Of a stretch of DNA of 64,000 nucleotides, positions 1 through 58,717 are shown in pieces (position 1 is the first letter of the stretch; every line of letters begins with the position of its first letter). Made by a program: the position numbers and the translations under genes. The notes below the pieces were generated by a model. The model saw only the letters and a list, made by a program, of their open reading frames with translations, had not been told where the DNA came from and made no database searches. Where the stretch lies: assembly GCF_009914755.1 (NCBI RefSeq), contig NC_060927.1; one strand, written 5' to 3'. The stretch is from the human T2T-CHM13v2.0 reference genome, Homo sapiens.

Positions 1-921
1 TACTTGACCTGGGTGAGGACCACTGGGAACATTTGCACCTTTCACCATTGCAAACTTTGACATGTGAGAGTTTCCAGAAATACAGAGATTCTTATTTTAA
101 TCCTTTTTCTTTTTAACTGCAGAAGGGAAATAATAATGGGATAGAATAACTGCAGGGAGTAGAGAGATGAGAAAACATTAGAAAAAATAGTACAGAAGTA
201 GAGCTGGATGAGAATCCAAGTTATGAGAACCTATTGATGAGAGGCATGCAGAAATAAAAAGCCCAAATTCAGTGATCTAAATCAGGGCTCAGATGAGGCT
301 GTTTGTATTGCACGGTAGGAATATATCCAGAAACAGTGGGCCTTTTATAAATTAAGCCTGCCATTCTCCAATTGCTTAAGACACTGAGGCCCATCAGGCC
401 AGAAACATATGACCCACTTTTTCTGAGAAGGAACTTTCCCTTTAGGAGTGGTAATTTAGAAGAAAAGAACAAGCCCAATGAATAGTCCCTTATGGGAGGC
501 ATCTCAGCAGAGGCCCTTTTTGGGGGCAGGAGGGATTGCATAGCAATACTGCCTACCCAGAGTTGTTGTTCCCAGGCTAGGGTCCAAATCAGGGCAGGGA
601 GATCTACTGGAGGCAGCGTATCACACACTAGTTGTCCAAGAGATGGAGAGAGAGTGCAAAATCTGAGCTGTGCTTATGGGAAGCTCGGAGTCTCACAAAA
701 CTACACCCATGCTGCCCATGGTTTATGTTTAATGAATGAAATGATGATTAAGATAGGACAATTGGACAAAAAGGCTGGGCCTTCTTAGGTGGGTATTGAG
801 TGGGAAGTGATTCAAGAGGCCAGACATTCTGTCTGGATATTAGCTGGAAGTGGGGCTGGACAAGATGAACTAGAGCCCTCTTGTGGTCCCATCATTCAGG
901 CCTGTAGCTTTCATTTGAGAC

Positions 922-1106
922 CAGTGGTTCTTAAACTTTTGCAGGGATCAGAATCACCTGGAGGACTTGCTAAAGCACAAATTGCTGGGCCCCACCCCAG
1001 CGTTTCTGATTCAGTGGGTCTGGGGTTGGGACTAGGAGTGCATTTCAAAGCACTTTCTGGAGATATTGATGCTGCTGGTCCTGGGACCACACTCTGAGAT
1101 ACAGTA
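922..1106. mobile_element. MER5A hAT-Charlie DNA transposon
   Basis: cagtggttcttaaactt...gaatcacctggag...gctgggccccacccc...gatgctgctggtcctgggaccacactctgaga; flanked by tttgagac/atctagac TSD-like 8-mers. Confidence 0.85.
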
Positions 1107-1777
1107 ATCTAGACCATGAAGGAGGTCTGGATCCTGGGGAGGGAATCCGCTTTCTGCTTTCTTAGGCACTAGGAAGGCAAGGAGATACTTGGGGCTGGAA
1201 GGTGGCAGGGGAGCATGGAAGGGAGGAGTCCTTGTCCATCGTGTCTCACCATCTGAGGAGCTGTCATCCTTTATTCATCCTGCCCTTCTGCTTGCCCTCA
1301 GTCTCAGAAATTCCAAAAGACAGCTTATGACCCTGCATTTTTGGTTAAAGAAAGGAGGGAACTGAACTGTCTGCTCTATGAATTCTGGGCTAGTGGGGAT
1401 CATGGGGATTTTGTAAATTATTTTGGTAGCCCGTTGAGTTTTGTCTCAGGATTTCAGCGGAATCCAAACCATGTGACATGGACCATTATCATTCAGCTGC
1501 CACCTCCTGGATCCTGCCCTGTAAACATGCCCAGGGGTCTCTGAGGATGGACGCGTGTCATTCACACACCAAGTGTGTTAGAGACAACAGAAAACCTTGT
1601 TTTTTTCCTGTGTTCTGGTGAAAGTCTTTTCTGTCTTTCCCTTTGTTTCTTCGAGGGAGCTTGAGTGGCAGGATTATTATTAAGAGTACTTTTTAAGTTC
1701 CCAACAATTAGATAGGAAATGAACTGAATGGGAGTTCACATTTTATCTTCAGGAAAATGACCGCAAGAAGGCCTTAC

Positions 1778-2032
1778 TGTGGGGTGGTTAAGAGCATGGC
1801 CTGGCTTTGGAATGCCTGGATTGGGAATCCTTGTTTTGTCACATCATCGCTGTGTGATCCTAAGCCAGTGATGTGACCTCCCTGCACTTCAATTTCCTCA
1901 CCTCTAAAGTTGGGATAATACTACAACTTATTTAGTAGGATTGCTGTAAGGACCAAATAAGATAATATAGCTCATGCAGTTAGAATTGGACCTGTCACTT
2001 ACAGATAGAAGGCAATACATTTTAGTTCTTAC
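1778..2032 (+). mobile_element. MIR SINE, near full length
   Basis: gtggttaagagcatgg...gctgtgtgatcct...tttcctcacctctaaagttgggataata...ggattgctgtaaggac. Confidence 0.85.
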
Positions 2033-2361
2033 TGTAAGACTGAGACATCCAAAGACGTCTCATACTGTAATGTGTGATATTTATGTATATGCTTTTTAAG
2101 GACTACAATCCTTAGTTTCCTACCTACTCAAGGTTATGTTTTGTAGATGCTAACAGTGTACATTCTAGAGAAAATCAGCTGGAGGGAGGAAAATGGTACA
2201 GTTCTAAAATTCTTTAAGCCTCGTTTAATTTTTTACCTGTTACTGCTTTCATCATCACCTCTCACTCTCATTTTCTAATAAGCCTGAAAAGCATGATGGA
2301 GTCATAAATCATGTCTGTAAAATGAAGATGTGTAGACTTTGGTAAGATCTCACATGTGATG

Positions 2362-2665
2362 TTAATAACAATACCTTACATATCTGGCCTCACACTTCAC
2401 TTAAACTGTCCCATTTAATCCCTGAAGTGGTCTCATTAGCTTCTGTTAGTCCCATTTTACAGTTTGTACAGTGGAGACTTCAGAGAAGAACCTGGCCCAG
2501 GCTCCACAGGCAGTTAATGACAGAGCTGGGATTTTTTTTTGTGGAGGAATAGGGGAGACTTTTCTGGTAAAGACCAGAAAACCTGCTAGACAAATTCTAA
2601 AAGAGCCATAACACTCAGAGCGGGGATTTTAACTTCATCTTCTGCTTCAGGGACCACATTGTTCC
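2362..2665 (-). mobile_element. MIR SINE interrupted by the U7 retrocopy
   Basis: cccattttacag...gacttcagaga...ggcccaggctccacag...gacagagctgggatttt|aacttc matches the reverse MIR core. Confidence 0.75.
2551..2615 (-). pseudogene. U7 snRNA retropseudogene
   Basis: Minus strand AGTGTTATGGCTCTTTTAGAATTTGTCTAGCAGGTTTTCTGGTCTTTACCAGAAAAGTCTCCCCT resembles U7 (Sm site AATTTGTCTAG, 3' hairpin); poly(A) at 2532-2540; 15-bp TSD at 2521-2535 and 2616-2630. Confidence 0.93.
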
Positions 2666-2742
2666 CAGTGTGTTTAAACACCTGGCTGGTTTTTCACTTG
2701 GGGTTCTCATTCAGATTCGTGATTCTGTTTACTGAGAGATGA

Positions 2743-3075
2743 TGTCCCAGTTACTCTAGCTCTGTAACAAATGACTCCAAAACTTGGGGCTGTGAAATAA
2801 TCATTTTATTTTGCTCATGGATTCTGTGGGTTATTCAGACTCAGTGTTCCATGATATTTGGGGCCTCAGCAGGGGTGATTCAACCACAGGAGCTAGAGTC
2901 CCCTGGGGTGTCTTTGCCCACGTGTCCCACAGGTGCATGGTTAGGACAGGGACCTCAGATGGGCTGTCATCCAGAACACCTACGTGTGTGGCCTCTCAAT
3001 GTGGTCTTTCTGCCTGGGCTGACTTGGGTTTCCTCAGAGCATGGCAACCTGATTCCTAGTGAGATTTCCGAGAGA
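2743..3075 (-). mobile_element. MaLR LTR (MLT1F/G-like), partial
   Basis: tgtcccagttact...gtaacaaatgactccaaaactt...ttttgctcatggattctgtgggt...cctcagatgggctgtc...acctacgtgtgtggcctctc. Confidence 0.75.
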
Positions 3076-4839
3076 GTGCGGTTGTCTGGCACTTCTGTGA
3101 TCTGGCAATAGCTTCAAGGAAGGAAATATATTTTTACATTGAAAGAAGAGAATATGAGCCATGTGTGCCAGGTACGGGGAGCCACCTGTGAAGATCCTGA
3201 GTAGAGGCTTAGGTCACTGTGGACACAGTGGCAGCAGTGGACAAGGACAAGGGATGCCGGGTCATGCATTCACCCCACAAATATTCCATCTATCTCTGAA
3301 CTAGGCAGAATGAGCAGGGCACCAATCTAATGGCTCTTCTGGATAATCACTTCACATGGGAATCCTAGGACTCCATATTATATTCTTATCCTGTTGAAAA
3401 TTTGACCTTTTAAAGATTTATTTATATTTAGCTCAGGCCTTAAAAATTCCATGTACTATCTAAAAAGGGAAAAGTTCATCCCAGTCAATGTCCTGTCTTG
3501 CTTATGTTTAAGTTGGATAGGAAGAAAAAAATCCACACCAGGAGAAGATTGGTTGTAAAAGTTTATTTTACATTTATGTGAAGTTTATTTTTGGTTCTGA
3601 TATTCTTCATAGGGTAGATATTTCTTTTAAGACTGTTAATAGTGTATTTCCTTTTTATTTGCCACTCCCCACCAAAATAAACCCTCTTTTATTTTTGAAT
3701 CAGCTTCATATCTTCAGAACGTCCAACTTTAAATAATGGTTGGAGAAGCTCCAGGTTAAGTAGAGAGTAAAATCCTATTGCTTTCTGACCTTTGGGTTAG
3801 GATCAAGTGTGGTGTAATAAAATATCAGTCCCAAGAGTCACCTTTGCTGATTTTTTTCCTATTATTCTTTCCTGTTATTCCATATTCATGCAGGTCTTGC
3901 AGCCAAGGATTGTTACATTAAGATCCAATCTGAAATTAAAACTTATGGTTTTAACCAATAAGCTATAAAGCTGTTGAACTCCCACTGGGATGTAGTTACC
4001 TTTTCCTAAACTTCCTGCATTGTCTCCTTTTAGCCCCACAGTTGATTTCTTATTGAGCCTTTGGAAAGTTCCTTGCCGTTTCACAGCCATTTCCCGTCAG
4101 AGTGGGGAATATTGACTGTGCAAACCACTTAAGGTCACAGGCACCACAGCTGTGTTTCTTCTTTGCAGAAGGGGGGTTTCTTTGGGTGGGGCTGTGCTCA
4201 GCCCTTCCGGGTGGTGAAGGTCTGAGGTCACACTGGGAGAGCAGGTCCATATCGGGATTGGGGCTCCAGCAGGATCAGAATGACTTCACCCAGACTTCTG
4301 GACCTGGAACTCATTCTCAGAACCTTCCAGAAGACCCTGCCCTGGAATTGCTTTCAAGGGTCTTTTTCATCTGTGTACAGAGTATATTTCCTTGGAGGCA
4401 GCTTTGCTGAAGGCCCCTTGAGTCAAGGGTAATAGGGTGGGAGCAGCTATACACAGTTGCATTTCAGTGTTTGATGATAAAATGGTGTCCGTTGGTGAGC
4501 ATCTTGGTGGTGAGGAAGTTTATACGACCACAGATGCTTCTCACCCCAAGGTACCCGTGCCCTGTGCTGCTGGTGCCACTCATCCTAGGGCATTCCTGCT
4601 TGGCAGTAGCAGATTCTAGATTGTCCTGTTTGCTGGTTTGGGGGCTGCAGGGGTCTGCAGAGTGCCGCAAGGAGGAGGAGTCCCAGATCACTGGTTGACC
4701 TTCAGCGGGCATTTAACAGCATATTCCATCAGGCCTCACCTACTAGTGTTTTGTTGAGGCTGCTATGTAACTTTGACTTTCTCTGCTGTCTCCTATTTAA
4801 GAGTAAATAAAGGTAGTGACAGTCACAAAAATAGCATCA

Positions 4840-5056
4840 ATGATGACAACTAGCGTTTACTGAGTGCTGACTATACCCAGGCACCATTCTAACCTCTTTA
4901 CCCAAGTTGTCTCTGCTAGTCCTCACCACAGCCCTGGGAAGTGTGTGCTGTCATATACCCATGAAGAAACTGAGGCCAAGAAAGGAAAGCAGCTCTGCCC
5001 AAGGTGTTATAAGCAGAGAGCACCGAGACAGGACCCAAGCCCAATTTGTGTTGACT
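4840..5056 (-). mobile_element. MIR SINE
   Basis: agcgtttactgagtgctgactatacccaggcac...atgaagaaactgaggcc...ctgcccaagg. Confidence 0.8.
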
Positions 5057-6020
5057 GGGGAATCAGTACTCAGTTCTCTTAGTCTTTGGCTGTTTTGTTG
5101 AGTGCCCAGGTCATCCTGGTAGAAGGGAGACAGTGACCCACGTGAAAAAGGATGGCTACAGATGCATGGCTGCATGGCTGTGCGTCATCCACCCTGGAGT
5201 ATCTGCTTGCCAAAAATAGGGCTACCTGCAAAATGCTTTGAGCACTGTGGAAACCAGCCGTTACAACTCCAAACGTTTATTTTTCTGATAATAGGTCAAG
5301 GTTTTCATAATTGAGTTTTAGGGGGGCTAATTTTAGACTTTCTGAAAATCAGTCTCAAGAAACAAAACCCAGAGTCAAGTAAAAGGATGCTTTTGGAACT
5401 GATGATTCTCAGAAGAAGCCATGAAGGGCTCGGCCATAACCCCGGGAAAGCTCACTGGCCAGCAGCCTGGAGCCAGTGGAGCTTCAGGTGGCTTTAATTC
5501 TTCCCTGGATGCTGGTGGTCTCCAGAGACACAGGGGTAAACAGGTCAGCGTCCTTGTCCTCAAGGGCGTCATCCTCCAGGGAGGACATAGCTGGTAATGA
5601 CAAAATGTGGGCCAGCGCCTTCTTGCAGCTGGGCACACAGGGCTAGGGGAACTGAGAGGAGAAAAGGATGAATTTGGCCTTGGCTTGGAGCAGCCTTTTA
5701 ACAGAAACACGCGTAACTTTCCTGCAGATGCACTTCCTGTGAATGAAGAGTCTTGATATATATTTTTCTTTAACAAGAGAAAGCCAGGCTTTTGATTAAT
5801 AATTTATATGTCAATGTTGGGATCTTCATTTTGTTATGAGAGATTTCAGTTACAACAGTGTGAGGTGGGTGGTCAGGAAACATTCCCCCTGGGCTCACTT
5901 TTTGCTTAGAAAAGTCCTGATGGAGAGGTTGAGGTGGGAAGAGAGTGAGGGGGAAGACTCCATGGAGCATGACAGGCATGCTGTGCCTGCCACAGCCAAG
6001 CATGGAGGTCCCAACCATAA

Positions 6021-42044: not shown

Positions 42045-42563
42045 GTTTAAGATATGCTTTTGGTTGACAGTAGTAAAACAAGCCAAAAGAAGTTGACCAT
42101 TTATGTGATGTGCAGTAATAAATTAGCAATTCAGAGTTGAGGAGCTCATTACTAATCTGTGGATAGTCCTAATCCCAGCCCTTTTCTTTCTGAGCTTTGC
42201 CTTTTGTAAATCTCAGTGCTTCACACACATCAGACAAAGATATTTTGTGAGTGGCTCTAAAAATGGGGGCAAAACATGACCCTGAGGAGGCCTGGGGCTG
42301 ATCTGAGCCTTAAGACTTATTTGTGGAGACCTTGTGCTGTTCTTTTTTTTTTTTTTTAATTATACTTTAAGTTTTAGGGTACATGTGCACAACGTGCAGG
42401 TTTGTTACATATGTATTCATGTGCCATGTTGGTGTGCTGCACCCATTAACTCGTCATTTATCATTAAGTATATCTCCTAATGCTATCCCTCCCCCAGCCC
42501 CCCACCCCACAACAGTCCCCAGTATGTGATGTTCCCCTTCCTGTGTCCATGTGTTCTCATTGT

Positions 42564-46386
<3,823 letters not shown>

Positions 46387-46449
46387 TATGATGTTAGCTG
46401 GTTATTTTGCTCATTAGTTGATGCAGTTTCTTCCTAGCCTTGATGGTCT

Positions 46450-47465
46450 TTACAATTTGGCATGTTTTTGCAGTGGCTGGTAATGGTTGTTCCTTTCCAT
46501 GTTTAGTGCTTCCTTCAGGAGCTCTTTTAGGGCAGGCCTGGTGGTGACAAAATCTCTCAGCATTTGCTTGTCTGTAAAGGATTTTATTTCTCCTTCACTT
46601 ATGAAGCTTAGTTTGGCTGGATATGAAATTCTGGGTTGCAAATTCTTTTCTTTAAGAATGTTGAATATTGGCCCCCACTCCCATCTGGCTTGTAGGGTTT
46701 CTGCTGAGAGATCCACTGTTAGTCTGATGGGCTTCCCTTTGTGGGTAACCCGACCTTTCTCTCTGGCTGCCCTTAACATTTTTTCCTTCATTTCAGCTTT
46801 GGTGAATCTGACAATTATGTGTCTTAGAGTTGCTCTTCTCGAGGAGTATCTTTGTGGCATTCTCTGTATTTCCTGAATTTGAATGTTGGCCTGCCTTGCT
46901 AGACTGGGGAAGTTCTCCTGGATAATATCCTGCAGAGTGTTTTCCAACTTGGTTCCATTTTCCCCGTCACTTTCAGGTACACCAATCAGACGTAGATTTG
47001 GTCTTTTCACATAGTCCCATATTTCTTGGAGGCTTTGTTCGTTTCTTTTTATTCTTTTTTCTCTAAACTTCTCTTCTTGCTTCATTTCATTCATTTGATC
47101 TTCCTTCACTGATATCCTTTCTTCTAGTTGATCGAATTGGCTACTGAGGCTTGGGCATTCGTCACGTAGTTCTCGTGCCATGGTTTTCAGCTCCATCAGG
47201 TCTTTTAAGGACTTCTCTGCATTGGTTATTCTAGTTAGCCATTCATCTAATTTTTTTCAAGGTTTTTAACTTCTTTGCCATGGGTTCAAACTTCCTCCTT
47301 TAGCTCAGAGTAGTTTGATCGTCTGAAGCCTTCTTCTCTGAACTCATCAAAGTCATTCTCCATCCAGCTTTGTTCCGTTGCTGGTGAGGAGCTGCGTTCC
47401 TTTGGAGGAGGAGAGGCACTCTCATTTTTAGAGTTTCCAGTTTTTCTGCTCTGTTTTTTCCCCAT
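46450..47465 (-). pseudogene. Disrupted L1 ORF1
   Basis: ATG GGG AAA AAA CAG at 47465; TGA at codon 60; 1016-nt span is not divisible by 3; C-terminal 248 aa open (...YPAKLSF...QKHAKL). Confidence 0.93.
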
Positions 47466-47879
47466 CTTTGTGGTTTTATGTACCTTTGGTCTTTGATGAT
47501 GGTGATGTACAGATGGGGTTTTGGTGTGGATGTGCTTTCTGTTTGTTAGGTTTCCTTCTAACAGTCAGGACCCTCAGCTGCAGGTCTGTTGGAGTTTGCC
47601 AGAGGTCCACTCCAGACCCTGTTTGCCTGGGTATCAGCAGCGGAGGCTGCAGAACAGTGGATATTGGTGAACAGCAAATGTAGCTGCCTGATCATTCCTC
47701 TGGAAGTTTTGTCTCAGAGGAGTACCTGGCCGTGTGAGGTGTCAGTCTGCCCCTACTCGGGGATGCCTCCCAGTTAGGCTACTCGGGGGCCAGGGACCCA
47801 CTTGAGGAGGCAGTCTGTCCATTCTCAGATCTCAAGCTGCCTGCTGGGAGAACCACTACTCTCTTCAAAGCTGTCAGAC

Positions 47880-48090
47880 AGGGACATTTAAGTCTGCAGA
47901 GGTTTCTGCTGCCTTTTGTTTGGCTATCCCCTACCCCCAGAGGTGGAGTCTACAGAGGCAGGCAGACCTCCTTGAGCTCCAGTAGGCTCCACTCAGTTCG
48001 AGCTTCTCAGCCACTTTGTTAACCTACTCAAGCCTTGGCGATGGTGGGCGCCCCTCCCCCAGCCTTGCTGCTGCCTTGCAGTTTGATCTC
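47880..48090 (+). promoter_or_regulatory. L1 antisense promoter region, directed toward the ITGA9 exon
   Basis: Corresponds to about nt 400-600 of the L1 5'UTR, where the ASP is established; activity of this copy unknown. Confidence 0.5.
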
Positions 48091-48304
48091 AGACTGCTGT
48101 GCTAGCAATGAGCAAGGCTCCGTGGGCGTAGGACTCTCTGAGCTAGGCACGGGATATAATCTCCTCGTGTGCTGTTTGCTAAGACTGTTGGAAAAGCGCA
48201 GTATTAGGGTAGGAGTGACCCGATTTTCCAGGTGCCATCTGTCACCCCTTTCTTTGACTAGGAAAGGGAATGCCCTGACCCCTTGTGCTTCCCAGGTGAG
48301 GTGA
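48041..48304 (+). CDS. L1 ORF0 homologue, open, 87 aa (extended)
   Basis: gcgATGG Kozak; MVGAPPPALLLPCSLISDCCASNEQGSVGVGLSELGTGYNLLVCCLLRLLEKRSIRVGVTRFSRCHLSPLSLTRKGNALTPCASQVR* resembles L1HS ORF0 (MAGAPPPASLPPCSLISDCCAS...); translation not demonstrated. Confidence 0.6.
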   Translation: MVGAPPPALLLPCSLISDCCASNEQGSVGVGLSELGTGYNLLVCCLLRLLEKRSIRVGVTRFSRCHLSPLSLTRKGNALTPCASQVR

Positions 48305-48968
48305 TGCCTCGCCCTGCTTCGGCTCACGCTTGGTGTGCTGCACCCACTGTCCTGCACCCACTGTCTGACACTCCCCAGTGAGGTGAACCCAGTACCTCAG
48401 TTGGAAATGCAGAAATCGCCCGTCTTCTGTGTCACTCATGCTGGGAGCAGTAGACTGGAGCTGTTCCTATTTGGCCGTCTTCGCTGTTATTTTTAAGAAT
48501 AAATTTTAAAAGGACAAAGTAAAACTCCAAGTTGAACTTAATGGCAAGGAAGTGTCAAAATGAGACTCTGCATGTAACTCCCCATGCCTCTCCACTACTG
48601 ATATGGATCTGCCTGGTCCACATCATCCTGGAGTGCTAGGGTGACCCTAGCACTGTATCCAGCTCTTCTCACCTCTTTAGGAATTTTAAGCCCACAAATT
48701 AAGTATGGAATTTATTACATGGTATCTTGCATTTCAGAAGCAGAATCTGAGATGGGGATTTTTGCCAGAGATTTATTGGGGGAGTGCTCTCAGAAGTGAG
48801 GAAAACAGAAAGGGACAGAGAAAAAAATGTTGAGTAAGGATGTGGTCTCAGGAAAAGTCTAGCCTCAGCCTGATCCCGTGCAGAAGCTCTGGAGCAGAGC
48901 TTATCCCACCCAGCAGCAAGGGGGATGGGGTGTTATCCTGCTGCATCTGCCAGCTAGGGAATGGGGCA

Positions 48969-49589
48969 GGTATTAGTTTTCTAGGCCACTTCAAAAATTA
49001 CAAATTTAGCAGCTTAAAACAGCATAAAGTTACTATCTCACAGTTTTTGTCAGTTAGGAGTCTGAGCATGGCCTGCTTAGCGTTTCACAAGGCCGTACTC
49101 AAGGTGCCAGCCAGATCTTTTATGCGGCTTGGGGTCTTGCTCCAGGCTCTCATGGCCGTTGCTGGAATTCACTCCTGCAGCTGTGGAGCCCAGGGTGACT
49201 TGCTTCTTCAAGACTAGCAGAAGACTCTTTTTGCTGCTTCTAGTCTCTTAGCTCAGCCTTCCAGTCTCTTAGCTCAGCCTTCCAGTCTCTTAGCTCACTG
49301 CTCTCCAAGGATTCTTGACACTTGCACTCCAACCCACTCTGGGTCAGAAGCTATTCCTCCCTGTGAAAGGGGTCACTTGAGTAGGCCAATTCACGCCATC
49401 CTTTCTGATTCACTCAATTGAGCTGATTCAGAACTTTAATTACATCTGCAAACTCCCCTCACCTTTGCCATTTAATGTAACATCACAGGAGTGAGAACCA
49501 TCATATGTCCAGTCCTTCCTACCCTCAAAGGGAGAAGATTATACAGGGGCATGGGTCACTGGCATCATTTTAGGATTCTGCCTGTCACA
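48969..49589 (-). mobile_element. MaLR LTR (MLT1D/E-like)
   Basis: gtattagttttctagg...aatttagcagcttaaaacagca...tttaattacatctgcaaa...ggattctgcctgtcaca; TSD gggca/gggcg. Confidence 0.82.
49237..49297. repeat. 21-bp tandem repeat, about 2.9 copies
   Basis: cttc(t/c)agtctcttagctcagc repeated. Confidence 0.95.
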
Positions 49590-50358
49590 GGGCGTCACTT
49601 GCAGGCTTCGCTGGAGGAGATGGCTCCTGTCACCCAAGGGCAGTTCTCCTGAGAAAGTTGTGGGCATAAGCAATGCATGTAGCGGCTAGGGCACTGAGGT
49701 CCCGTGACCTGGTTCCAGCCTGCTCTCCTTCCCTGTCCATAGTCCCTCCCTGCCCCTCCCCCGTGATCTTGCCCCACAGACCTTTCTCAGGTGGCGGTGG
49801 TGATGGTGTTGTAGGGGCAACTGGCTTTTTTAGAGTGTCAGGAGCTCTCCAAGGTGCTTGACATCCATTTCTCTAATCTTCACAACAAGCATGCAAGGTT
49901 GATTCTGTCATCCCATTTTACATCTGAGAAAACAAGCTCAGAGAGAGTAAGTAAAGTGGCCAAGGTTGCAGTTTGCAAGAAATGGAGCTTGGACCCCCTC
50001 TGACCTTGAACTGGCTGACATCAAAGTTGTCGCTTTGCCTGGTCCTGTCACCTCTCTTCCTCAGATGTCTAGTGTTTATTAGACCTCCATAGTATCTTCA
50101 CCAACTGAGAAGGTGCCCCATCAGCCTGAGGAACTCCCAGGGTCACCCCTCTACAAGGATTCTTGACACTTGCACTTCTACCCACTCTGGGTCAGAAGCT
50201 ATTCTTCCCTCATTGGATTGCCACCATTCTTGTAAGGGCACCTTCTCTGCACCACAGTTTTTTGCTCACACTCCTCCTATTTTTCTCTTCTCAGCTTCCC
50301 TATGCCTCATGATGCCAGGCATAAGGCACACAGCAACCAAGTGTTGGCAGAAGGCAAA

Positions 50359-50720
50359 TTATATGGTTTGGCTGTGTCCCCACCCAAATCTCATCTTGAA
50401 TTTTAGCTCTTATAATTCCCACATGCTGTGGGAGGGACCTGGTGGGAGATAATTGAATCATGGGGGTGATTTTCCCCATACTGTTCTTATGGTAGTGAAT
50501 AAGTCTCATGAGTTCTGATGCTTTTATAAGGGGAAACTCCTTTCACTTGGCTCTCATTCTCTCTTGTCTGCTGCCATGTAAGATGTGCCTTTTGCCTTCC
50601 ACCATGGTTGTGAGGCCTCCCCAGCCATATGGAACTGTGAGTCCATTAAACCTCTTTTACTTTATAAATTACCCAGTTTTGGGTATGTCTTTATCAGCAG
50701 CATGAGAACAGACTAATACA
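50359..50720 (+). mobile_element. THE1 (THE1C-like) MaLR solo LTR, sense to ITGA9
   Basis: atatggtttggctgtgtccccacccaaatctcatcttgaa...ggaactgtgagtccattaaacctc...gactaataca. Confidence 0.93.
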
Positions 50721-51520
50721 CCAATTGAGGTTCCTCCAGAGAATTAACAAAATGTCCAGGCACTCTTTCGTTGTTCCCCCATACCCACAGACCTGCCATC
50801 CCTGGCCCTGCCTGGATGCCGGTACCTGGCCACTGCTGCTATATTCCATGCTTTTGGACAAGAGCATGTTCAGTATTGTCCAGGAGACCCAGGGAGCTCA
50901 AGACAGAGCTGAGATCCAGTTCCTACAGCCACAGTTAACACCCCAGCCCCCGACACACACACAGACTTTTCAATGCAAAATCAAACCATTCCCAAATATC
51001 CAGCTACATATTGTTTTACCTTTGAAGAGAAAAAAGCATCAGTGGGGTTATGTGATTTTCATAGATGAACAATTTTTGCAAATATGTTAATTGAAGAGTA
51101 ATTGGTGCTTTCTTGACCCTCCTGAGCACTGATGCTTGCCAAAGGGTTATACATTTCAGACTAATGATGATATCCATTACTATATGTGCAATTGCTTATA
51201 AACTAATATATAGTCATATTAAAATCTCTAATCTGATTGAGAAATTTTCAGAAACAAGGTACACTGATTTTCTCACCACTTATTTCCTGCTCTCATGACA
51301 GAATTTCTGGAGTTCTTTGAATTCACCTGGTTTTTGGAGCTCTGTCAAGTCAATATTTATAACTGAACTAGTTCAAACAGTTCAAGCATTGTCTCTTCCT
51401 TTCTGGTTGAAGTTCTGTCTTAGAAGACTGTTGTAGTCAGCTGTGCTTGTCATAAAGTTTTGTTTAAAATTATTTTAGAATTTTCTTCTTTGGCTTTAAT
51501 TTAAATTTTTGTTTGTTTAC

Positions 51521-51772
51521 TTTTTTTTTTTTTTTTCCCCGGCTCACTGCAAGCTCCACCTCCCAGGTTCACACCATTCTCCTGCCTCAGCCTCCCAAGC
51601 AGCTGGGACTACAGGCGCCCGCCACCAGGCCTGGCTAATTTTTTTGTATTTTTTAGTAGAGACAGGGTTTCACCGTGTTAGCCAGGATGGTCTCGATCTT
51701 CTGACCTCATGATCCACCTGCCTCGGCCTCCCAAAGTGCTGGGATTAGAGGTGTGAGCCACCGTGCCCAGCC
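51521..51772 (-). mobile_element. AluY lacking about 47 nt next to its tail
   Basis: AluY diagnostics gcaagctcc, gttcacaccatt, gttagccaggatggtctcgatc; 13-bp TSD ttgtttacttttt. Confidence 0.92.
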
Positions 51773-51944
51773 TTGTTTACTTTTTAATTTATAGGATTGT
51801 AAATGAAACTATACTTGGCCTCAGTTTATTCTCTGGGAAATAGGTTCTTGCTACAGGTACAGTTTATAATAAGGATTTATTTCATAATAGGGAGCTTTTT
51901 ATAGATTTTAATATCATAGTTGCCATTTAAAAAATTGTATTAAA

Positions 51945-52230
<286 letters not shown>

Positions 52231-52379
52231 TTAAAAATGGTAATGATCACCATTTATTGCTTGCCTACAGTATGTCAGTCATTATACAAGGTATATTTTA
52301 TAATTATAAATATTATTTATTATCTGATTACAAATATGTTATACCTTGCACTGTGTCCTGTATGTCTGTTATGTTTATT

Positions 52380-53170
52380 TCTGAATTTTCCTTCCTTTTT
52401 CCTCTCCATGCTTTGATCTGGATATTTCCTATTGAGAGAATACACTGAGGCCCAGTGTGATTTCATTCACAATCCTATAAATTAAAAAGCAAACAACTTC
52501 TGGGTCACTGGTCGTCTTTTCTGCTGTGTTCAATCTCCAGTAAAATATGTCAGCACCTTAACCACTGTCCTCTGCCTGGTTTCTTAGTCTCACAGCCCCG
52601 TGCTGCTGTAGAATTGGCAGATGCCTTGAGGACAATTGTGGCGTACAGTAAACATACCTCAATATACTTATTTCTGTTTGGGATTTTCGCCCCTCAAGTC
52701 CTCATTGCGTTATTAGCCCTGAGCTCTTAAGTTTTGTCTTCACAGAGTCATAAGACTTCCAGAAATTCAGCTTAGAAACTCAAGAACTTAGCTTTTTAGC
52801 CACTGCTTCACTTTCAGTTTCATAGCCTCTCATCCCACACTGCTTACAAATCTGGAAACACCTCAAGGGAAAAGTGCCCATAAATGTTGGGGTTACCTCC
52901 ACATTCTTTCCTTCTCTTTGGGACCCTATACTCTGAAGTCCTGGCTGTCTTGATAGTTAGTTCCCTGATAACTTTATATATTTTTAATTTTTTTAAATGA
53001 ACCTGGCATTTCAAACATAAGTTCCATGATAATTTTAAACAGGGGTGTGTGTGTGTATGTGTGTGTGTGTGTGTCTGTGTGTGTGTGTGTGTGTGTGTCC
53101 AGCTTTTCGAGTTGTCCGTGGGAGGACGGTTTCAGTAAGTTACTCTATCATTACTGGAAATGCAAAATCC
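52380..53170 (-). mobile_element. Old L1M 5'-end fragment
   Basis: Monomer-like gaattggcagatgccttgagg / aaatctggaaacacctcaagggaaaagtg; ends with ctctatcattactggaaatg. Confidence 0.5.
53045..53098. repeat. Interrupted (GT)n microsatellite
   Basis: About 27 GT units with two interruptions. Confidence 0.95.
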
Positions 53171-53719
53171 TGTTTTCTTTTAAAAGAGTCTTCAAGCTGA
53201 TGAAAATTTTAAAGTAGCTTATAACATTTTAACTGTGATCTTATTTATTATGAGTATAGAGATAAAGGAAAAGGCATCCCACTTCTGAAGATTTCTCGTT
53301 TCTAGGAGTGTCTACAAGATTATCATAGGTGAAAGTAGGGTTGGATGCAGAGAAATAGTAAGAAAGGATGGAGGATGGAGGGGATAAAAAGATCACATGT
53401 TTGGTGAATCCTCTTTTAAAAACACTTAGAAGATTTTCCCTAAACTAATTATCTGGCTTAATGCTAACTGCTTATTTGCTGACCTTCTGCTTTATTTACA
53501 AATTTAAAGTGGGGCCAACCCTTCCTGTTTTCCTTTAATTTACCCCGGCAGCTGCTGGTTAGCTAAGGAAGAAAAAAAACCCTTTTTTTTTTTTTTTTTT
53601 TTTTAATGGAGACAAGCAGCAATTAGGTAGGCTTCTAGGTCAGGTGGCCAGTTAGGGGTGCCAGGGTTCCCAGGTCCAGCTTTCTTCGGGTCATAGAGTG
53701 AGGGTGGGAATCAAGTCAC

Positions 53720-54770
53720 TCAGATATTTCTCCCGAATTGAAATGCGTGTCTTCCTTTGGCTGGGCAGATGAGGTCCCCTCTTCTCCATCTCTGCTGCTG
53801 GGTCCTGGTGCAAGCCCTTACTCTCTTTCCACTAAACCCATGTGGCAGCCTCCTCCTTAGCCTGTTTCTCCCCAGTCCTGCACCCATCAGTCCACTGCCA
53901 CACGGCAGCTACAGGGACCTTTCTAGAACACAGCCTCCTGCTGCCTCCATGTTGGCCTCCCTGCCCCTGTCAGAGGGATTTTTATTTATTTTATTTATTT
54001 ATTTTTGAGACAGAGTCTTGCTCTGTCACCCAGGCTGGAGTGCAGTAGTGTGATTGCAGCTCACTGCACCTCCGCCTCCTGGGTTCAAGCAATTCTCCTG
54101 CCTCAGCCTCCTGAGTAGCTGGGATTATAGGCGTGCTCCACCACGCCCGGCTAATTTTTGTATTTTTAGTAGAGATGGGGTTTCACCACGTTGGCCAGGC
54201 TGGTCTCAAACTTCTGACCTCAGGTCATCCGCCTTCCTCAGCCTCTTAAGGTGCTGGGATTACAGACGTGAGCCACCATGCCCAGCCAAGAGGGACTTTT
54301 CTATAACAGCCTCTAGGATCATGCTACCCCCTTCCCAGCTCTCCCTAGCTTTTAAGATCACATAACCTGCAAAGTGCCCTGAGATCTGGTTCTGCATGAA
54401 TCTTCTCTACCCTATTGCTGCCTATCAACTTGACTTCCCACCTTTGGGAGTCAGATGCAGTCCGCTGGACAGCCCATGCCCTCTCCATGTGGCTATACCA
54501 CCCCTGCCTTGCCCCTGCTCTCTGCCTGATGTCCTACTGTCTTTTGACTGTGCCCAGGGGCATTTCCTCTGGGAAGCCTGCCAGCCCTCAGTCTGAACCT
54601 TTGGGTCCCCAAAGCCTCCCCTGTCCTGGTATGTGTTGCACTGCGTTGTCATCTCTTGTCTGTTTCCCCTGAGACTCATTATTCCCTGAAGGTCTTTCAT
54701 CTCTGTTTCCCTGTGGCCCAGCACATTGCCTGGCATAAAGTAAGCACCCAATAAATTTCAGATGGAGCAT
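53720..54770 (+). mobile_element. L2 LINE 3' region interrupted by an Alu
   Basis: tccactgccacacggcagc...catttcctctgggaagcct...cagcacattgcctggcataaagtaagcacccaataaat. Confidence 0.72.
53979..54287 (-). mobile_element. AluSx-like
   Basis: Full dimer with (TTTA)n tail; TSD agagggattttt/agagggactttt. Confidence 0.93.
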
Positions 54771-55649
54771 ATGTTAAGTTCCCTATAAAACCTCAGCTGC
54801 TGCAAATTCTGCCACCAGCCTGGGTGTTCTCCTCTGTGGGGACTCCTTCAGTTTTCAGAGACAGGAGACTCCCATAGATTTTTAGCAGGAAAAGGTAGAT
54901 TCTTGCCTTTTAGTCTGTCAGAATGACACTTTATTAGATGCTTTAGAACTGCAGAAGCTTCAATTTTAGAATTTTCAGTTTGTAGCGTTATTTTTTTTAA
55001 GCAGTAAAATTTCAGCGACTATGGTCTGTGCCAGAGCCCTAAGCCTCTTTCTCCATCCTAAGGAGTTTCTCTGCTTAATTGCAGTGCTGAGCTCAGGGAA
55101 GCTGCATATCCAAAAATGAAAAGGAAACCGCTAAATTGTGCTGCTACTTTTCCTTTGCAGCTCAGATAAAACAGGCCCAGTGTGGGAAGAAGGGGCTGTC
55201 CTTTTGGGGGTGTTGGCCTGTTTCTAATTGCTGCACCCTCCTCTGCCTCCACCCATGCCTCAGTGTGGTTTGGGTCCCTTCTGCCCAGAGCTACTGGGAC
55301 ATGTAATAAGAAGCTGCTTTTCAGACTTCTTAATTAAAATAGGTTCCGGCAGCCATTGCCAGGAAGCAGCATTCGCACCCCTACATGTCCAAATGCATTA
55401 CTCATCCAAAATAAGATATGCCACGACTCAGGTTTCCCTCCTTAGCCACCATGGCTTGAATGGCTGCATTTAGAAACAGCCCTTACTTCAAGCCCCTATT
55501 TCTTAATTATTTGTCACTTATTCGCATTCATCCTTGTGTGTGAAACATTTTTCCCCTCACCCTATATGCTGTTATGTAAACAAGTAATTTTTTAGGATGA
55601 TGTCAGAACCTGATGTAGTTGGGGTGGTTTTAAAATAGTATTTTATGGA

Positions 55650-56185
55650 CAGCAAGAAAAGTAGTTTTGCTTCTGGTTTCACTTGCTAGCTTTGGGATGG
55701 AGGGACATTTATTTGAGCTTCTGCACCTCTGTGATCTTGTCTATAAAACGGGGGGCAATGGCTGGTGCTGTGGCTCACACTTTTAATCCCAGCACTTTGG
55801 GAAGATGAGGCAGAAGAATCACTTGAGGCCAGGAGTTCAAGACCACCTTGGGCAACATAGTGAGACCCCATCTCTACAAAATAAAAAATAAATAAAAGAA
55901 ATAAAAGAATGAAAGTTAGCTAGGCATGGTAGTATCCAACTGTAGTCCCAGCTACTCAGGAGGCTGAGGCAGGAAGATTGCTTGAGCTTAAGAGTTCAAG
56001 GCTGCAGTGAGCTATGATTGTCCCACTTCTGGGAAACAGAGCAAGACTCTGTCTCAAAAAAAAAGTGGAAGGTGGGGGTCAATAATCTGCCAGCTCAGGT
56101 ATTGTAAGGATTAAGAAAGACAGTGTCTGTGAAGAGCTTGGCCCAGTCTCTGGAACACATTTGGTAGCCAGGAAATAGTAAATGA
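55650..56185 (+). mobile_element. MIR SINE interrupted by AluJ
   Basis: tctataaaacgggggcaat[Alu]aataatctgcc...attgtaaggattaaga. Confidence 0.7.
55760..56064 (+). mobile_element. AluJ
   Basis: cacttgaggccaggagttcaagacc...ggctgcagtgagctatgatt; expanded A-rich linker. Confidence 0.92.
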
Positions 56186-58364
56186 CTTCTGTTTCCCTAC
56201 CCCCATCTTCACCTCCTCCCCTAGAATAACAACATCATAACTGACTTATTTCATCATTAAGGATTTAAATGCAAAACCTTAAGATAGTCAGCCTTAGGGA
56301 AACACTGAAGAATTTATTTTTAAACACATAAAGATTGCATTCATTCATCCTTCTCCACACCGCGGGCAGTCTTCAAATTCTGGTTAGCAGAGTCAGCGGG
56401 CAGGGAGGATCTGGATCCTGGGGTTGTGTGCTTTGCTCCCAGAGGGACATGAGTATCAAAGGTCTGCCCCGATATCTGGAGTTCAAGAGGCGTTTTCTGG
56501 AAACAATTTGTCCAAAGGCTCCCCTATCACTCTCTTGGAGAAGTCCTGTGTTTTATTTATGCTGAATGATTGAATCTATTCCCAGCCGAATGTTTTCCTG
56601 AACACCAGTAAAAATCATCTGCCAGTCACTCGGGCTCCCACCCCGGGAGTCATCTGTCCCCTTTGCCTGGTCTCCCATGCCTCACAGCTCAGCAGCCACA
56701 GGCATGGCCATATCTGCCTCTCTTGCCCTTGCCACTCCACTTCATCATGGCCGTCTCCTCTCTGGGGCTGCTGCGGGAGATTTCCAGTCTGCCCTCCAGT
56801 GTCTCTGCATGCATTCTACTCACCTCCTCTCCCCCCGCAGCCCCGAGGAACTCTGAAGAAACACAAGCTTCTGTGGCCCCGTACACGTAGGACTACCACC
56901 GCTTACTTGGAGGCAGTGGCAGTAAAAACGGAAACAACAAACAAAACAGAATAAAATCCTCTTTAACTTTGTTTAACTTGGTGTCCCATGCAGTCTATTT
57001 AATTTCAGACTCTTATTTACCCCAGTCCTAGGGAACTGAGGTTCATAGGACCAATCTGGGTGAATGCTGCTACAGTTTGTGGATGGGCTGCTCCCCATTT
57101 GCTTGTTCAGGTAGCTTTGAGCCCAAACATTGGTCAGCAAGGGCATCCATATAGTGACATGCTGTATGTCATCAAAAAGAAGGTGTTCCTGACATAGACA
57201 ATTTCCAGAATATATGCTAAGTGACTAAAGCAAAGTGCAGCATGAGATGCCACCATGTGCTGCAGATGCTTGGACTGGATGGATACCTAAGTACCCCCAA
57301 ACTGGCAGGCACATCTGCCTCTGGGGAAGGGGGCTGGGTGTCGGGGAGGGGTGGGAGCAAATTCCTCCCCGTGTGCCTCCTGGGGCCTTTAGAACCTCTA
57401 CTTCTTTGAACACAGTGCTACTCTGCTCCAAACGCCCCCAAACTTCACACAGAGAGTAGTATGAAGTCCTCATCTCTGCACTTGTGGCCCTGAGGTTGGC
57501 CTCAGCCTGCCCGCCCAGCTTCTCTTCTCATTCTTCCCTGCTGCCACTCTCCTGTCTCCCCAGGGACTCGGCTGTTTGAGCCACTTTCCTTTGACACGTC
57601 TCAGACTTGCCCTGCTCCACTTGGAAGTCCTTGGAGCAGCCCACACGCACCCCCGCCGAGCTCACTGTCTCAGAATGTGGGACCACCTACCAGCTTTACT
57701 CCTGCGTCTAACTCTAACTTGTGAGATTGTGGGGGCCAGAGTCCCCAGGAGGCAGTGACGCTGTGTGCAGAAAAGCCAAGAGCTCCAGGGCTGAACAGAT
57801 GTGACTGAAAATCTTTACCAGCCATGTGCCCTGGGGAACTGAGCCTTTCATTTCCCCTTTCCTTTTCTGTATAATGGAGGATAACAAGCCTTCACTCACA
57901 GGGCGTGGGTGTGTTTCTCATCTCCTTGCAGCACCTAGCACAGTACCTGGCATCTCATATGTTCAGGGCATGTTTGCTCTCCTCCCTTCCTTTCCCATCG
58001 TGACTGTCAATCGACTGTTCCCTTGGGGCTTGAGATTCTTGGATTCCAAAGGAAAGAACACAGGGCCAGGAGTCAGAATTTCATCCTTGCCTCCGCTGAT
58101 GTCTAATTCTGGGATAACGCTGGGCCACTCAGTCTTTGGATTCCCTGCCCTAACACAAAATCCATATTTATCTCAATGCAAAAGAGATGTGGTCATCGAA
58201 ACACTGAATGCAAAGGGTTAGCAGAGTGAGCACAGATGTTCTCCCATTTGCCAACTGGTTTCTAAGAATATTTGGAGGATGAGTAAAGTAATGTCTTCCA
58301 TATGCTCAAGAGAAGATGATTTAGCACCATGCAAGGTAGAGAAGGAGAGCCCCCACCCATCAAC

Positions 58365-58525
58365 AGAATGACCTTGGACAAGACACTAGCTGCCCTAGGC
58401 CTCAATTACCTCATTTAAAATATGAAAGTCATAAAACCCTACCTCACGAGGGTGATTGTGAGGATTATATGAGGCAATTCATGTAGAAGGTCTTTGTAAA
58501 CTGTGAAATGCTCTACGACTGTCAG
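58365..58525 (+). mobile_element. MIR-family SINE ending about 40 nt before the ITGA9 acceptor
   Basis: tgaccttggacaag...cctacctcacgagggtgattgtgaggatta...tttgtaaactgtgaaatgct. Confidence 0.78.
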
Positions 58526-58567
58526 CCAGGATTAGTAGTTAATGCACGTATTTGTTTATTGTTTCAG

Positions 58568-58717
58568 CGGAGGGTGCAGGACGTCATCAGCCCGATCGTG
58601 TTTGAAGCAGCCTACAGCCTCAGTGAGCATGTGACTGGAGAGGAGGAGAGGGAACTGCCGCCTCTGACACCAGTTCTCCGCTGGAAAAAGGGACAAAAGA
58701 TTGCCCAAAAGAATCAG
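58568..58717 (+). CDS. ITGA9: Internal coding exon of integrin alpha-9 (probably exon 16), 150 nt, phase 0/0
   Basis: Acceptor tttgtttattgtttcag|CGG and donor CAG|gtcaga; 50 codons RRVQDVISPIVFEAAYSL...LPPLTPVLRWKKGQKIAQKNQ match the ITGA9 thigh-region sequence as recalled; locally CpG-rich relative to flanks; exon number from memory. Confidence 0.96.

What the first reader, a model, noticed from the sequence alone, without database searches (positions are those of the whole stretch)
48041..58717. Predicted in-frame L1 ORF0-ITGA9 fusion driven by the L1 antisense promoter
Seen: the L1 is antisense, so its ORF0 is on the ITGA9 strand. ORF0 is open from gcgATGG (48041) for 87 codons. A strong donor, CAG|GTGAGG, falls exactly after codon 85 (48295; 255 nt, phase 0), and a second, AGG|GTAGGA, after codon 56 (48208; 168 nt, phase 0). 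The next ITGA9 acceptor (58568) is phase 0, about 10.3 kb away. Known: L1 antisense promoters make chimeric transcripts (e.g. L1-MET) and ORF0 can splice into host exons. As I recall, L1HS ORF0 (71 aa, ...RCVRHPFL) stops before this donor; here gtgccatctgtc shifts the frame so the donor is reached in frame. Inference: a headless alpha-9 (85 aa ORF0 plus the alpha-9 leg, TM and tail) could be made when this L1 is derepressed.
Basis: partly seen in the sequence, partly recalled or inferred. Interest (0 to 1): 0.8.

Follow-up and report, generated by a model that had tools for sequence, protein, structure and literature searches.

The report
Intronic L1PA4 ORF0, hypothetical ITGA9 fusion
An old, dead L1 retrotransposon lying backwards in an ITGA9 intron keeps a small antisense reading frame that could on paper splice in frame into the next ITGA9 exon, but many L1 copies of its age share this layout and no spliced product has been seen, so it is most likely ordinary.

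Summary
The element is a full-length, coding-dead L1PA4.

The extra base that carries ORF0 to the far donor is not special to this locus. It marks an older L1PA class: 65 of 100 sampled chr1 copies have it, and 20 of those 65 have ATG, an open frame and a GT donor in phase 0.

In published L1-antisense ESTs, mostly from young L1s, splicing uses two upstream donors. The site equivalent to 48295 was spliced in 0 of 3 exact-motif cases.

ITGA9 is absent from a 988-transcript EST catalogue. One glioma RNA-seq table lists this L1 with 1 read pair in 1 of 11 samples. That pair lies downstream of all three donors, so it is unspliced or pre-mRNA.

The predicted protein would lack the alpha-9 signal peptide and begin inside the thigh domain.

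Verdict: a correct observation and a legitimate but unobserved prediction of a known kind. Low interest.

The parts
42333..48478 (-). Full-length (about 6.1 kb) L1PA4 retrotransposon, antisense to ITGA9, coding-dead
   Evidence: The extent comes from the repeat mask in the hub annotation. Pinson 2022 Table S2 row Id_515 calls an L1PA4 of 6141 bp, minus strand, in ITGA9. It maps here with a constant hg19-T2T offset of 40,120. It is the only L1 5'UTR of this type in the 263 kb of ITGA9 that I scanned. Its sense ORFs are broken into 777+218+122 aa pieces plus a 248-aa piece. The 7 nearest paralogues are 6.4-9.7% divergent.
47878..48078 (+). Expected L1 antisense promoter / start-site zone (L1 positions about 400-600); inferred, not tested
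   Evidence: Placed by distance from the L1 5' end at 48478. Pinson 2022 names an ASP region around +450 (passages). The 400-600 range is recalled from Speek 2001, which is not held.
48041..48304 (+). ORF0, 87 aa, older-class long form
   Evidence: Three of 65 older-class copies have the same 87-aa length; others that are still open run to 100-179 aa.
48144..48152 (+). Site of young-L1 donor SD1 (after ORF0 nt 106), lost here (TAG|GCACGG, GT to GC)
   Evidence: GT is present in 34 of 34 young and 50 of 65 older sampled copies. ESTs spliced at this site appear.
48206..48214 (+). Donor-like site AGG|GTAGGA, exon end 48208, phase 0
   Evidence: Consensus match 6 of 9; U1 proxy -8.6 kcal/mol.
48229..48237 (+). 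Homologue of young-L1 donor SD2, CAG|GTGCCA, exon end 48231, phase 2, weakened (+5 G lost)
   Evidence: This is the dominant donor in published ESTs (TTTTCCAG 68 occurrences versus 5 followed by GTGC).
48293..48301 (+). Donor-like site CAG|GTGAGG, exon end 48295, phase 0; best consensus donor in ORF0
   Evidence: 8 of 9 consensus; -11.6 kcal/mol. Seven of 65 older copies carry this exact 9-mer. The equivalent site was spliced in 0 of 3 exact-motif ESTs.
48369..48382 (+). Internal L1 antisense acceptor (CCCCAG|TGAG, exon start 48379)
   Evidence: ESTs CF594064 and CF594290 from another L1 splice SD2 to the homologous site. AG is present in 34 of 34 young and 58 of 65 older copies.
48498..48503 (+). 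AATAAA poly(A) hexamer 20 nt beyond the L1 5' end
58568..58717 (+). ITGA9 coding exon (150 nt, phase 0 in and out), late thigh domain
   Evidence: Hub annotation.

Best explanation
This is an ordinary fossil: a full-length L1PA4, roughly 15-20 million years old and coding-dead, inserted antisense in an ITGA9 intron. Its antisense ORF0 is the long form typical of older L1PA elements, in which one extra base relative to L1HS/L1PA2-3 carries the frame past the young-L1 stop. That places the conserved GTGAGG donor-like site at nt 255, in phase 0. The frame is still open because no stop-creating mutation happens to have hit it, not because of selection. If the antisense promoter fires at all, the expected products are mainly unspliced or short read-through transcripts. 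Some may be spliced to the internal L1 acceptor or to decoy acceptors. An in-frame ORF0-ITGA9 mRNA would at most be a rare by-product. Its protein would lack a signal peptide, begin inside the thigh domain, and probably be mislocalised and degraded. Shown: the anatomy, the subfamily distribution, and the EST donor usage in other L1s. Inferred: promoter activity here, the transcript fates and the protein fate.
For: (1) Subfamily trait. The motif pair around the frame-shifting base has 2492 genome matches versus 0 for the reversed control. Of the first 100 listed (all chr1), 34 have the 4-nt spacer, 65 the 5-nt spacer as here, and 1 a 6-nt spacer. In the 5-nt class the far donor is phase 0 in 45 of 65, and 20 of 65 combine ATG, GT, an open frame and phase 0.
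(2) Age. The nearest paralogues are 92-94% identical over ORF0 and a median 7.0% divergent over 1.9 kb. The L1 ORFs are broken. RepeatMasker calls it L1PA4.
(3) Donor usage. In Criscione 2016 Table S3 EST text, CGAGCCAG occurs 79 times and 49 of those are followed by GTG. TTTTCCAG occurs 68 times and 5 are followed by GTGC. GCTTCCCAG occurs 3 times and all 3 are followed by GTGAG. Splicing is therefore at SD1 and SD2 and not at the far site, although 23 of 34 young copies carry the same strong CAGGTGAGG there.
(4) No junction evidence. ITGA9 is in 0 of 10 Criscione supplementary files, and 0 papers were found.
[quoted passage not shown] Their row for this L1 has 1 read pair in 1 of 11 samples, mapping to window about 48360-48461 and 48579-48680, downstream of all three donors. 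It is marked not validated and not in the EST literature.
(6) Criscione's summary of Denli 2015 gives 57 of about 3200 ORF0 loci seen fused to a gene exon.
(7) There are 14 crude strong acceptor-like sites and an AATAAA at 48498 between the L1 and the exon.
(8) The exon aligns to residues 535-581 of a 597-residue alpha-4 headpiece chain, so the fusion would start inside the thigh.
Against: In this particular copy SD1 is destroyed (GT to GC) and SD2 has lost its +5 G. The 48295 site is by far the best donor by consensus (8 of 9) and by U1 pairing (-11.6 against -6.8 for 48231 and -6.9 for ITGA9's own exon donor). If the promoter fires, use of the in-frame donor is therefore plausible.

The EST donor counts come almost wholly from young L1s. 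Only 1 EST of the older spacer class was found, and only from the 546 ESTs with a predicted peptide.

Pinson 2022 reports antisense-promoter activity for L1PA1-L1PA7, with 13.5-20.6% of elements giving chimeras, and does list this element.

The frame, the Kozak context and the absence of an upstream ATG are all favourable. An in-frame product would escape nonsense-mediated decay.

I could not look at any RNA-seq junction, CAGE or long-read data.
Confidence: 0.75

Rival explanations
1. One reading: when this L1PA4 is derepressed, its antisense promoter makes an mRNA that starts upstream of 48041 and splices 48295 (or 48208) to 58568. That mRNA would be translated into ORF0 (85 or 56 aa) fused to the C-terminal ~45% of integrin alpha-9.
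For: All frames and phases check. 48295 is the strongest donor in this copy, and the usual upstream donors are lost or weakened. ORF0-exon fusions and L1-antisense alternative promoters are established phenomena (passages). L1PA4-age antisense promoters are reported active.
Against: No junction, EST or paper links this L1 to a spliced ITGA9 transcript. The far donor was used in 0 of 3 exact-motif ESTs elsewhere. Most LCTs are unspliced (2.9% spliced). [quoted passage not shown] There are 14 decoy acceptor-like sites and a poly(A) hexamer in between. The protein would have no signal peptide and a truncated thigh (topology is inference).
Confidence: 0.12
2. The antisense promoter is active at a low level, but its product is a non-coding L1 chimeric transcript. 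It would be unspliced read-through into the intron, ended near the AATAAA at 48498 or further on, or spliced only to the internal L1 acceptor at 48379.
For: The Pinson Id_515 read pair spans the L1 5' end into flanking intron, unspliced. By that paper 97% of LCTs are unspliced, and most were under 400 bp. ESTs CF594064 and CF594290 show the internal acceptor in use in another L1, and the site is intact here. AATAAA lies at 48498.
Against: One read pair in total RNA on the ITGA9 sense strand cannot be told from ITGA9 pre-mRNA. The row is marked not validated.
Confidence: 0.3
3. Splicing occurs, but from the SD2 homologue at 48231 (phase 2). This gives a frameshifted message that stops inside the ITGA9 exon and is removed by nonsense-mediated decay.
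For: SD2 is the dominant donor in published ESTs (68 TTTTCCAG occurrences, only 5 followed by GTGC). The join reads to a stop at residue 85.
Against: Here SD2 is CAG|GTGCCA, without the +5 G and +6 T of the young form. It has the weakest U1 proxy of the three donors (-6.8).
Confidence: 0.08

Closest known systems
L1 ORF0 and ORF0-exon fusion proteins (Denli et al. 2015, Cell 163:583). The paper is not held; it is known here through passages in PMC4859970, PMC4908685 and PMC13517631.
   Same: An antisense ORF in the L1 5'UTR about 440 nt from the L1 5' end, with a strong Kozak ATG and donor sites that can join it to downstream host exons.
   Different: The described ORF0 is 70-71 aa with two internal donors. 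The ESTs shown place the donors in use after nt 106 and nt 191 of ORF0, and I take these to be the two. Here the ORF is the 87-aa older-class form, the first donor is lost, the second is weakened, and the proposed donor (nt 255) lies beyond the young-L1 stop. No fusion transcript has been observed for this locus.
L1-MET and other L1 antisense-promoter alternative transcripts of host genes (Speek 2001; Nigumann 2002; Weber 2010; Criscione 2016)
   Same: An intronic full-length L1, antisense to the host gene, positioned to drive a 5'-truncated host transcript from the next exon on.
   Different: Those cases rest on ESTs, RT-PCR or RNA-seq junctions and mostly involve L1HS/L1PA2. ITGA9 is not among the 988 catalogued transcripts. 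The L1-MET details are recalled, not read here.
L1 chimeric transcript Id_515 (L1PA4 / ITGA9) in Pinson et al. 2022, Table S2 (PMC9396940)
   Same: The same element: L1PA4, 6141 bp, minus strand, in ITGA9, with coordinates matching at a constant offset.
   Different: That entry is a single unspliced-type read pair across the L1 5' end, not an L1-to-exon junction. It was not validated, and it cannot be distinguished from pre-mRNA.

Membership tests
Full-length L1PA4 element | About 6.1 kb with a 5'UTR homologous to other L1PA1-7 5'UTRs | tested here: met
   The masked span 42333-48478 is 6146 bp. The 264-nt ORF0 stretch has 4894 first-look candidates genome-wide, the best at 92-94% identity.
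Full-length L1PA4 element | Subfamily call by RepeatMasker diagnostic positions | tested here: met
   Not run here, but Pinson 2022 Table S2 (from the UCSC RepeatMasker track, hg19) labels the element L1PA4. A divergence of about 7% from the nearest copies fits that age. The published L1PA4 age is recalled.
L1 ORF0 locus (sense of Denli 2015) | ATG with Kozak context on the antisense strand of the 5'UTR, about 440-450 nt from the L1 5' end | tested here: met
   ATG at 48041 is 438 nt from the L1 end at 48478. The context is GCGATGG, and there is no upstream ATG in 47800-48040.
L1 ORF0 locus (sense of Denli 2015) | 70-71 aa ORF with two internal splice donors | tested here: not met
   The ORF is 87 aa. 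The SD1 site reads GC instead of GT, and SD2 is present but weakened. It is the older-class variant of ORF0, not the described young form.
ORF0-host exon fusion transcript | Observed splice junction from inside ORF0 to an annotated exon, in frame | not testable with these tools
   No RNA data were available. The frames are compatible. ITGA9 is absent from the EST catalogue.
L1 chimeric transcript (LCT) from the antisense promoter | Transcript whose 5' end lies in the L1 antisense promoter and continues into unique flanking sequence | tested here: inconclusive
   One CLIFinder read pair in 1 of 11 samples, with the 5' end not determined and the LCT_validated flag FALSE.

The most novel reading that the evidence does not exclude
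Older L1PA elements (the 5-nt-spacer class, L1PA4-like) carry a distinct long ORF0 architecture. In it the strongest donor of the antisense 5'UTR sits in phase 0 inside the ORF, so several hundred copies genome-wide could put an in-frame ORF0 tag onto phase-0 host exons. That figure is my extrapolation: about 2492 x 0.65 x 0.31, or roughly 500. At ITGA9, with the competing upstream donors lost, this copy would make a leg-only alpha-9. Its unusually hydrophobic N-terminus (ALLLPCSLI) might even act as a cryptic signal sequence. The result would be a tumour- or placenta-restricted membrane protein or junction neo-antigen.
Probability: 0.04. Interest if true: 0.5.

Novelty: new member of a known kind. 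Interest (0 to 1): 0.2.

Why it matters
If the junction were real, it would add one more L1-driven truncated host isoform and a possible tumour-specific junction peptide. That would be useful but not new in kind.

The more general point is about method. An open ORF0 with an in-frame donor upstream of a phase-0 exon should not by itself be scored as remarkable for L1PA4-like elements, because about a third of sampled older copies keep that layout (20 of 65). The donor usage seen in ESTs also does not follow consensus strength.

Tried and rejected
Papers and supplements:
- Denli 2015, Speek 2001 and Matlik 2006 are not held. ORF0 facts therefore come from other papers' passages and from genome copies.
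- Earlier scan findings were not open.
Its list of nearly a hundred hiPSC L1 chimeric transcripts could bear on the claim and was not seen. Its main text, and that of Garza 2023, have 0 mentions of ITGA9.
- The search ITGA9 + L1PA gave 1 irrelevant paper.
- Criscione Table S1 has no exon-block columns, so donor positions could not be taken from it. I used motif counts in the EST text of Table S3 instead. These count text occurrences, with cells cut at 400 characters and possible duplicate rows.

Genome and scripts:
The scan for a second L1 of this type covers 263 of 374 kb.
- A CpG-count comparison between classes failed, because the fetched flanks were too short (n = 1 and 7 usable). It is not used.
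- MaxEntScan and SpliceAI are not available. I used a 9-position consensus count and a U1-duplex energy with a recalled 11-nt U1 motif as crude proxies.
- No structure, complex or protein-database search was run on ORF0 or on a joined protein.

Rejected idea: that the open 87-aa frame signals selection. It is rejected because 21 of 65 sister copies are open to the same point.


Full report
OBSERVATION

On the + strand an ATG at 48041 opens an 87-codon frame ending in TGA at 48302-48304. There are three GT sites:
- CAG|GTGAGG, with its last exon base at 48295 (255 nt, phase 0).
- AGG|GTAGGA, at 48208 (168 nt, phase 0).
- CAG|GTGCCA, at 48231 (191 nt, phase 2).

The annotated ITGA9 exon 58568-58717, read from its first base, gives RRVQDVISPIVFEAAYSL.... 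This aligns to integrin alpha-4 residues 535-581 of chain 3v4p_A (597 residues) and 568-614 of 9p95_A (E 7e-6 to 9e-6). The acceptor is therefore phase 0.

Joining by coordinates in a script, the 48208 and 48295 joins stay open through the exon. The 48231 join stops at residue 85. No ATG lies between 47800 and 48040, and the start context is TTGGCGATGG.

WHAT THE ELEMENT IS

The repeat-masked block 42333-48478 is a full-length L1 on the minus strand.
- Its sense frames are broken: 777, 218 and 122-aa pieces where ORF2 should be, and a 248-aa piece for ORF1.
- The 264-nt ORF0 stretch has 4894 first-look candidates in the same genome. The best are 92-94% identical.
- Over 1.9 kb the seven nearest copies are 6.4-9.7% divergent, with a median of 7.0%, or 5.4% when sites in CpGs are left out.

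A published table names the element. Pinson et al. 2022 (PMC9396940, hg19; passages; Table S2) lists row Id_515: L1PA4, chr3:37654453-37660593, 6141 bp, minus strand, gene ITGA9.

With an hg19-minus-T2T offset of 40,120, this maps to window 42333-48473. I scanned 263 kb of the 374-kb gene, made up of the window. Only this one copy of the 5'UTR turned up, so the identification is safe. The last 111 kb could not be fetched, but an element there would need an impossible offset.

THE FRAME SHIFT IS A SUBFAMILY TRAIT

I searched the genome for the two flanking motifs with a variable spacer. There are 2492 matches and 0 for the reversed control.

I fetched the first 100 listed matches, which are all on chr1 and were not selected. 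I tabulated each copy against the window without building any consensus.

Young type, 4-nt spacer (34 of 100):
- 27 of 34 have a 71-aa ORF0.
- The far GTGAGG site lies at nt 254 (phase 2) and beyond the stop, so 0 of 34 reach it.

Older type, 5-nt spacer as in the window (65 of 100):
- Spacers are CGTCT in 26 copies, CATCT in 22 (the window's form, a CpG-decay product) and TGTCT in 6.
- The far site is phase 0 in 45 of 65.
- 21 of 65 have ATG, GT and an open frame up to it, and 20 of those are in phase 0.
- Open copies run to 87 aa (3 copies) or 100-179 aa.

One copy has a 6-nt spacer.

The window's layout is thus what about a third of L1PA4-like copies still show. By my extrapolation this is some 500 copies genome-wide. 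That figure is biased towards well-preserved copies, because the pattern demands exact flanks. No selection or locus-specific event needs to be invoked.

WHICH DONORS L1 ANTISENSE TRANSCRIPTS REALLY USE

Reviews state that ORF0 has two splice donors (passages). Denli 2015 itself is not held.

The EST sequences printed in Criscione et al. 2016 Table S3 (PMC4908685) show the donors directly:
- One lies after ORF0 nt 106 (CGAGCCAG|GTG).
- One lies after nt 191 (TTTTCCAG|GTGC).
- There is also an internal acceptor inside the L1. ESTs CF594064 and CF594290 splice to the site homologous to window 48379.

Motif counts in that file:

| Motif | Occurrences | Followed by unspliced continuation |
|---|---|---|
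| CGAGCCAG | 79 | 49 (GTG) |
| TTTTCCAG | 68 | 5 (GTGC) |
| GCTTCCCAG (far site) | 3 | 3 (GTGAG) |
| CTTCCCGA (far-site variant) | 13 | 9 (GTGAG) |
| CTTCCCAA (far-site variant) | 10 | 7 (GTGAG) |
| CTTCCCGG (far-site variant) | 5 | 0 (GTGAG) |

Two of the displayed TTTTCCAG cases not followed by GTGC were unspliced variants. For the far-site variants, the non-matching passages I was shown (1 for CTTCCCAA and 2 for CTTCCCGG) were unrelated sequence.

So the far site is unused there. This holds even though 23 of 34 young copies carry the same strong CAGGTGAGG.

Caveats:
- These are text occurrences, in cells cut at 400 characters.
- They cover only the 546 ESTs with a predicted peptide.
- They come almost wholly from young L1s. 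Only one EST of the older spacer class was found, and it reads through its CGAGTGAGG.

THIS COPY'S OWN DONORS

Here the nt-106 donor is lost (TAG|GCACGG). The nt-191 donor has lost its +5 G and +6 T (CAG|GTGCCA against the young CAG|GTGCGT).

The 48295 site is the best in the ORF. It matches 8 of 9 consensus positions. Its U1-duplex proxy is -11.6 kcal/mol, against -8.6 for 48208, -6.8 for 48231 and -6.9 for ITGA9's own exon donor. These are crude proxies, and the U1 motif was recalled.

If the antisense promoter fires here, 48295 is the likeliest donor.

EVIDENCE ON EXPRESSION
- ITGA9 occurs in 0 of 10 supplementary files of the 988-transcript EST catalogue.
- Full-text searches for ITGA9 with 'L1 antisense promoter', or with 'LINE-1' and 'chimeric transcript', gave 0 papers. 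ITGA9 with 'L1PA' gave 1 irrelevant paper.
- The main texts of Garza 2023 and Adami 2025 do not mention ITGA9.

The only trace is Pinson's Id_515. It has 1 read pair in 1 of 11 total-RNA samples (GBM.7), is marked LCT_validated FALSE, and is not in the EST literature. Its two mates map to about 48360-48461 and 48579-48680. Both lie downstream of all three donors and across the L1 5' end. The RNA was therefore unspliced there. Being on the ITGA9 sense strand, it may simply be pre-mRNA (my inference).

Three published statements set the background:
- Criscione's summary of Denli gives 57 of about 3200 ORF0 loci seen fused to an exon.

OBSTACLES BETWEEN DONOR AND EXON

An AATAAA sits at 48498, 20 nt past the L1 end. 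There are 12 further poly(A) hexamers before the exon.

A crude scan (at least 14 of 17 pyrimidines, then YAG) finds 14 acceptor-like sites in 48320-58570. The true acceptor does not pass that filter. Exon definition should still favour the real exon, but 'the next acceptor' is not guaranteed.

THE PROTEIN

The exon aligns to the last ~60 residues of a propeller-plus-thigh alpha-4 headpiece chain. The product would therefore begin inside the thigh beta-sandwich, not at a clean head/leg boundary. It would also lack the alpha-9 signal peptide.

I infer that a cytosolic, unglycosylated, non-disulphide-bonded leg fragment with a far C-terminal membrane span would be mislocalised and degraded.

One open point remains. 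This copy's ORF0 N-terminus has a hydrophobic 9-mer, ALLLPCSLI (Kyte-Doolittle mean 2.4), where most copies read ASLPPCSLI. Whether it could serve as a signal sequence was not testable here.

COMPARISON AND VERDICT

The finding works like the known L1 ORF0-exon fusions and L1 antisense alternative promoters such as L1-MET (recalled). The locus is a member of the L1PA4 family and an older-class variant of the ORF0 locus. It does not meet the '71 aa with two internal donors' description. Membership of 'ORF0 fusion transcript' cannot be tested without RNA data.

My estimates:

| Reading | Probability |
|---|---|
| Ordinary fossil with at most noise-level output (the unspliced-transcript case in the next row is part of this reading) | about 0.75 |
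| Low-level unspliced non-coding L1 transcript | about 0.3 |
| Some detectable in-frame junction somewhere | about 0.12 |
| Stable, functional leg-only alpha-9 | a few per cent |

Novelty: a possible new member of a known kind. Interest is low.

Noticed in passing
window 48369-48382: The internal antisense acceptor of the L1 5'UTR (CCCCAG|TGAG) is intact here. In another L1, ESTs CF594064 and CF594290 splice the nt-191 donor to the homologous site, removing a mini-intron of about 147 nt. AG is kept in 34 of 34 young and 58 of 65 older sampled copies.
   Followed up: partly
window 48498-48503: A canonical AATAAA lies on the ITGA9 strand 20 nt beyond the L1 5' end. It could end short antisense-promoter transcripts.
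   Followed up: no
L123 (G000:C3:37656001-37666000), positions 65-5232: A second long L1 body (5.2 kb, 88% identical to this one, same orientation) lies about 36 kb further into ITGA9. It has no 5'UTR of this type, so it carries no ORF0.
   Followed up: no
L121 (G000:C3:37636001-37646000), positions 1005-2965: A 2-kb fragment just past the window's end aligns to the first 2 kb of the body query (window 42348-44308, the low-coordinate end of the L1). It is 96% identical and in the same orientation, which is closer than any full-length paralogue found for the ORF0 region.
   Followed up: no
L095/L096 and L101/L102 (G000:C1 about 120.2/120.7 Mb and 145.5/146.0 Mb): Two pairs of chr1 L1 copies gave identical per-copy rows (same ORF length, donors and C-terminal residues). 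They are probably copies within pericentromeric segmental duplications, so the 100-copy sample holds a few non-independent rows.
   Followed up: no
L009-L108 (100 chr1 copies): In older-class copies the commonest ORF0 truncations are at 24 aa (12 of 65) and 60 aa (6 of 65). This suggests recurrent CpG-decay stops at the same codons; the CGA-to-TGA reading is my inference.
   Followed up: partly
window 49728-49928: The RefSeq 'silencer' functional element lies between the L1 and the exon. One of the crude acceptor-like sites (exon start 49743) falls inside it.
   Followed up: no
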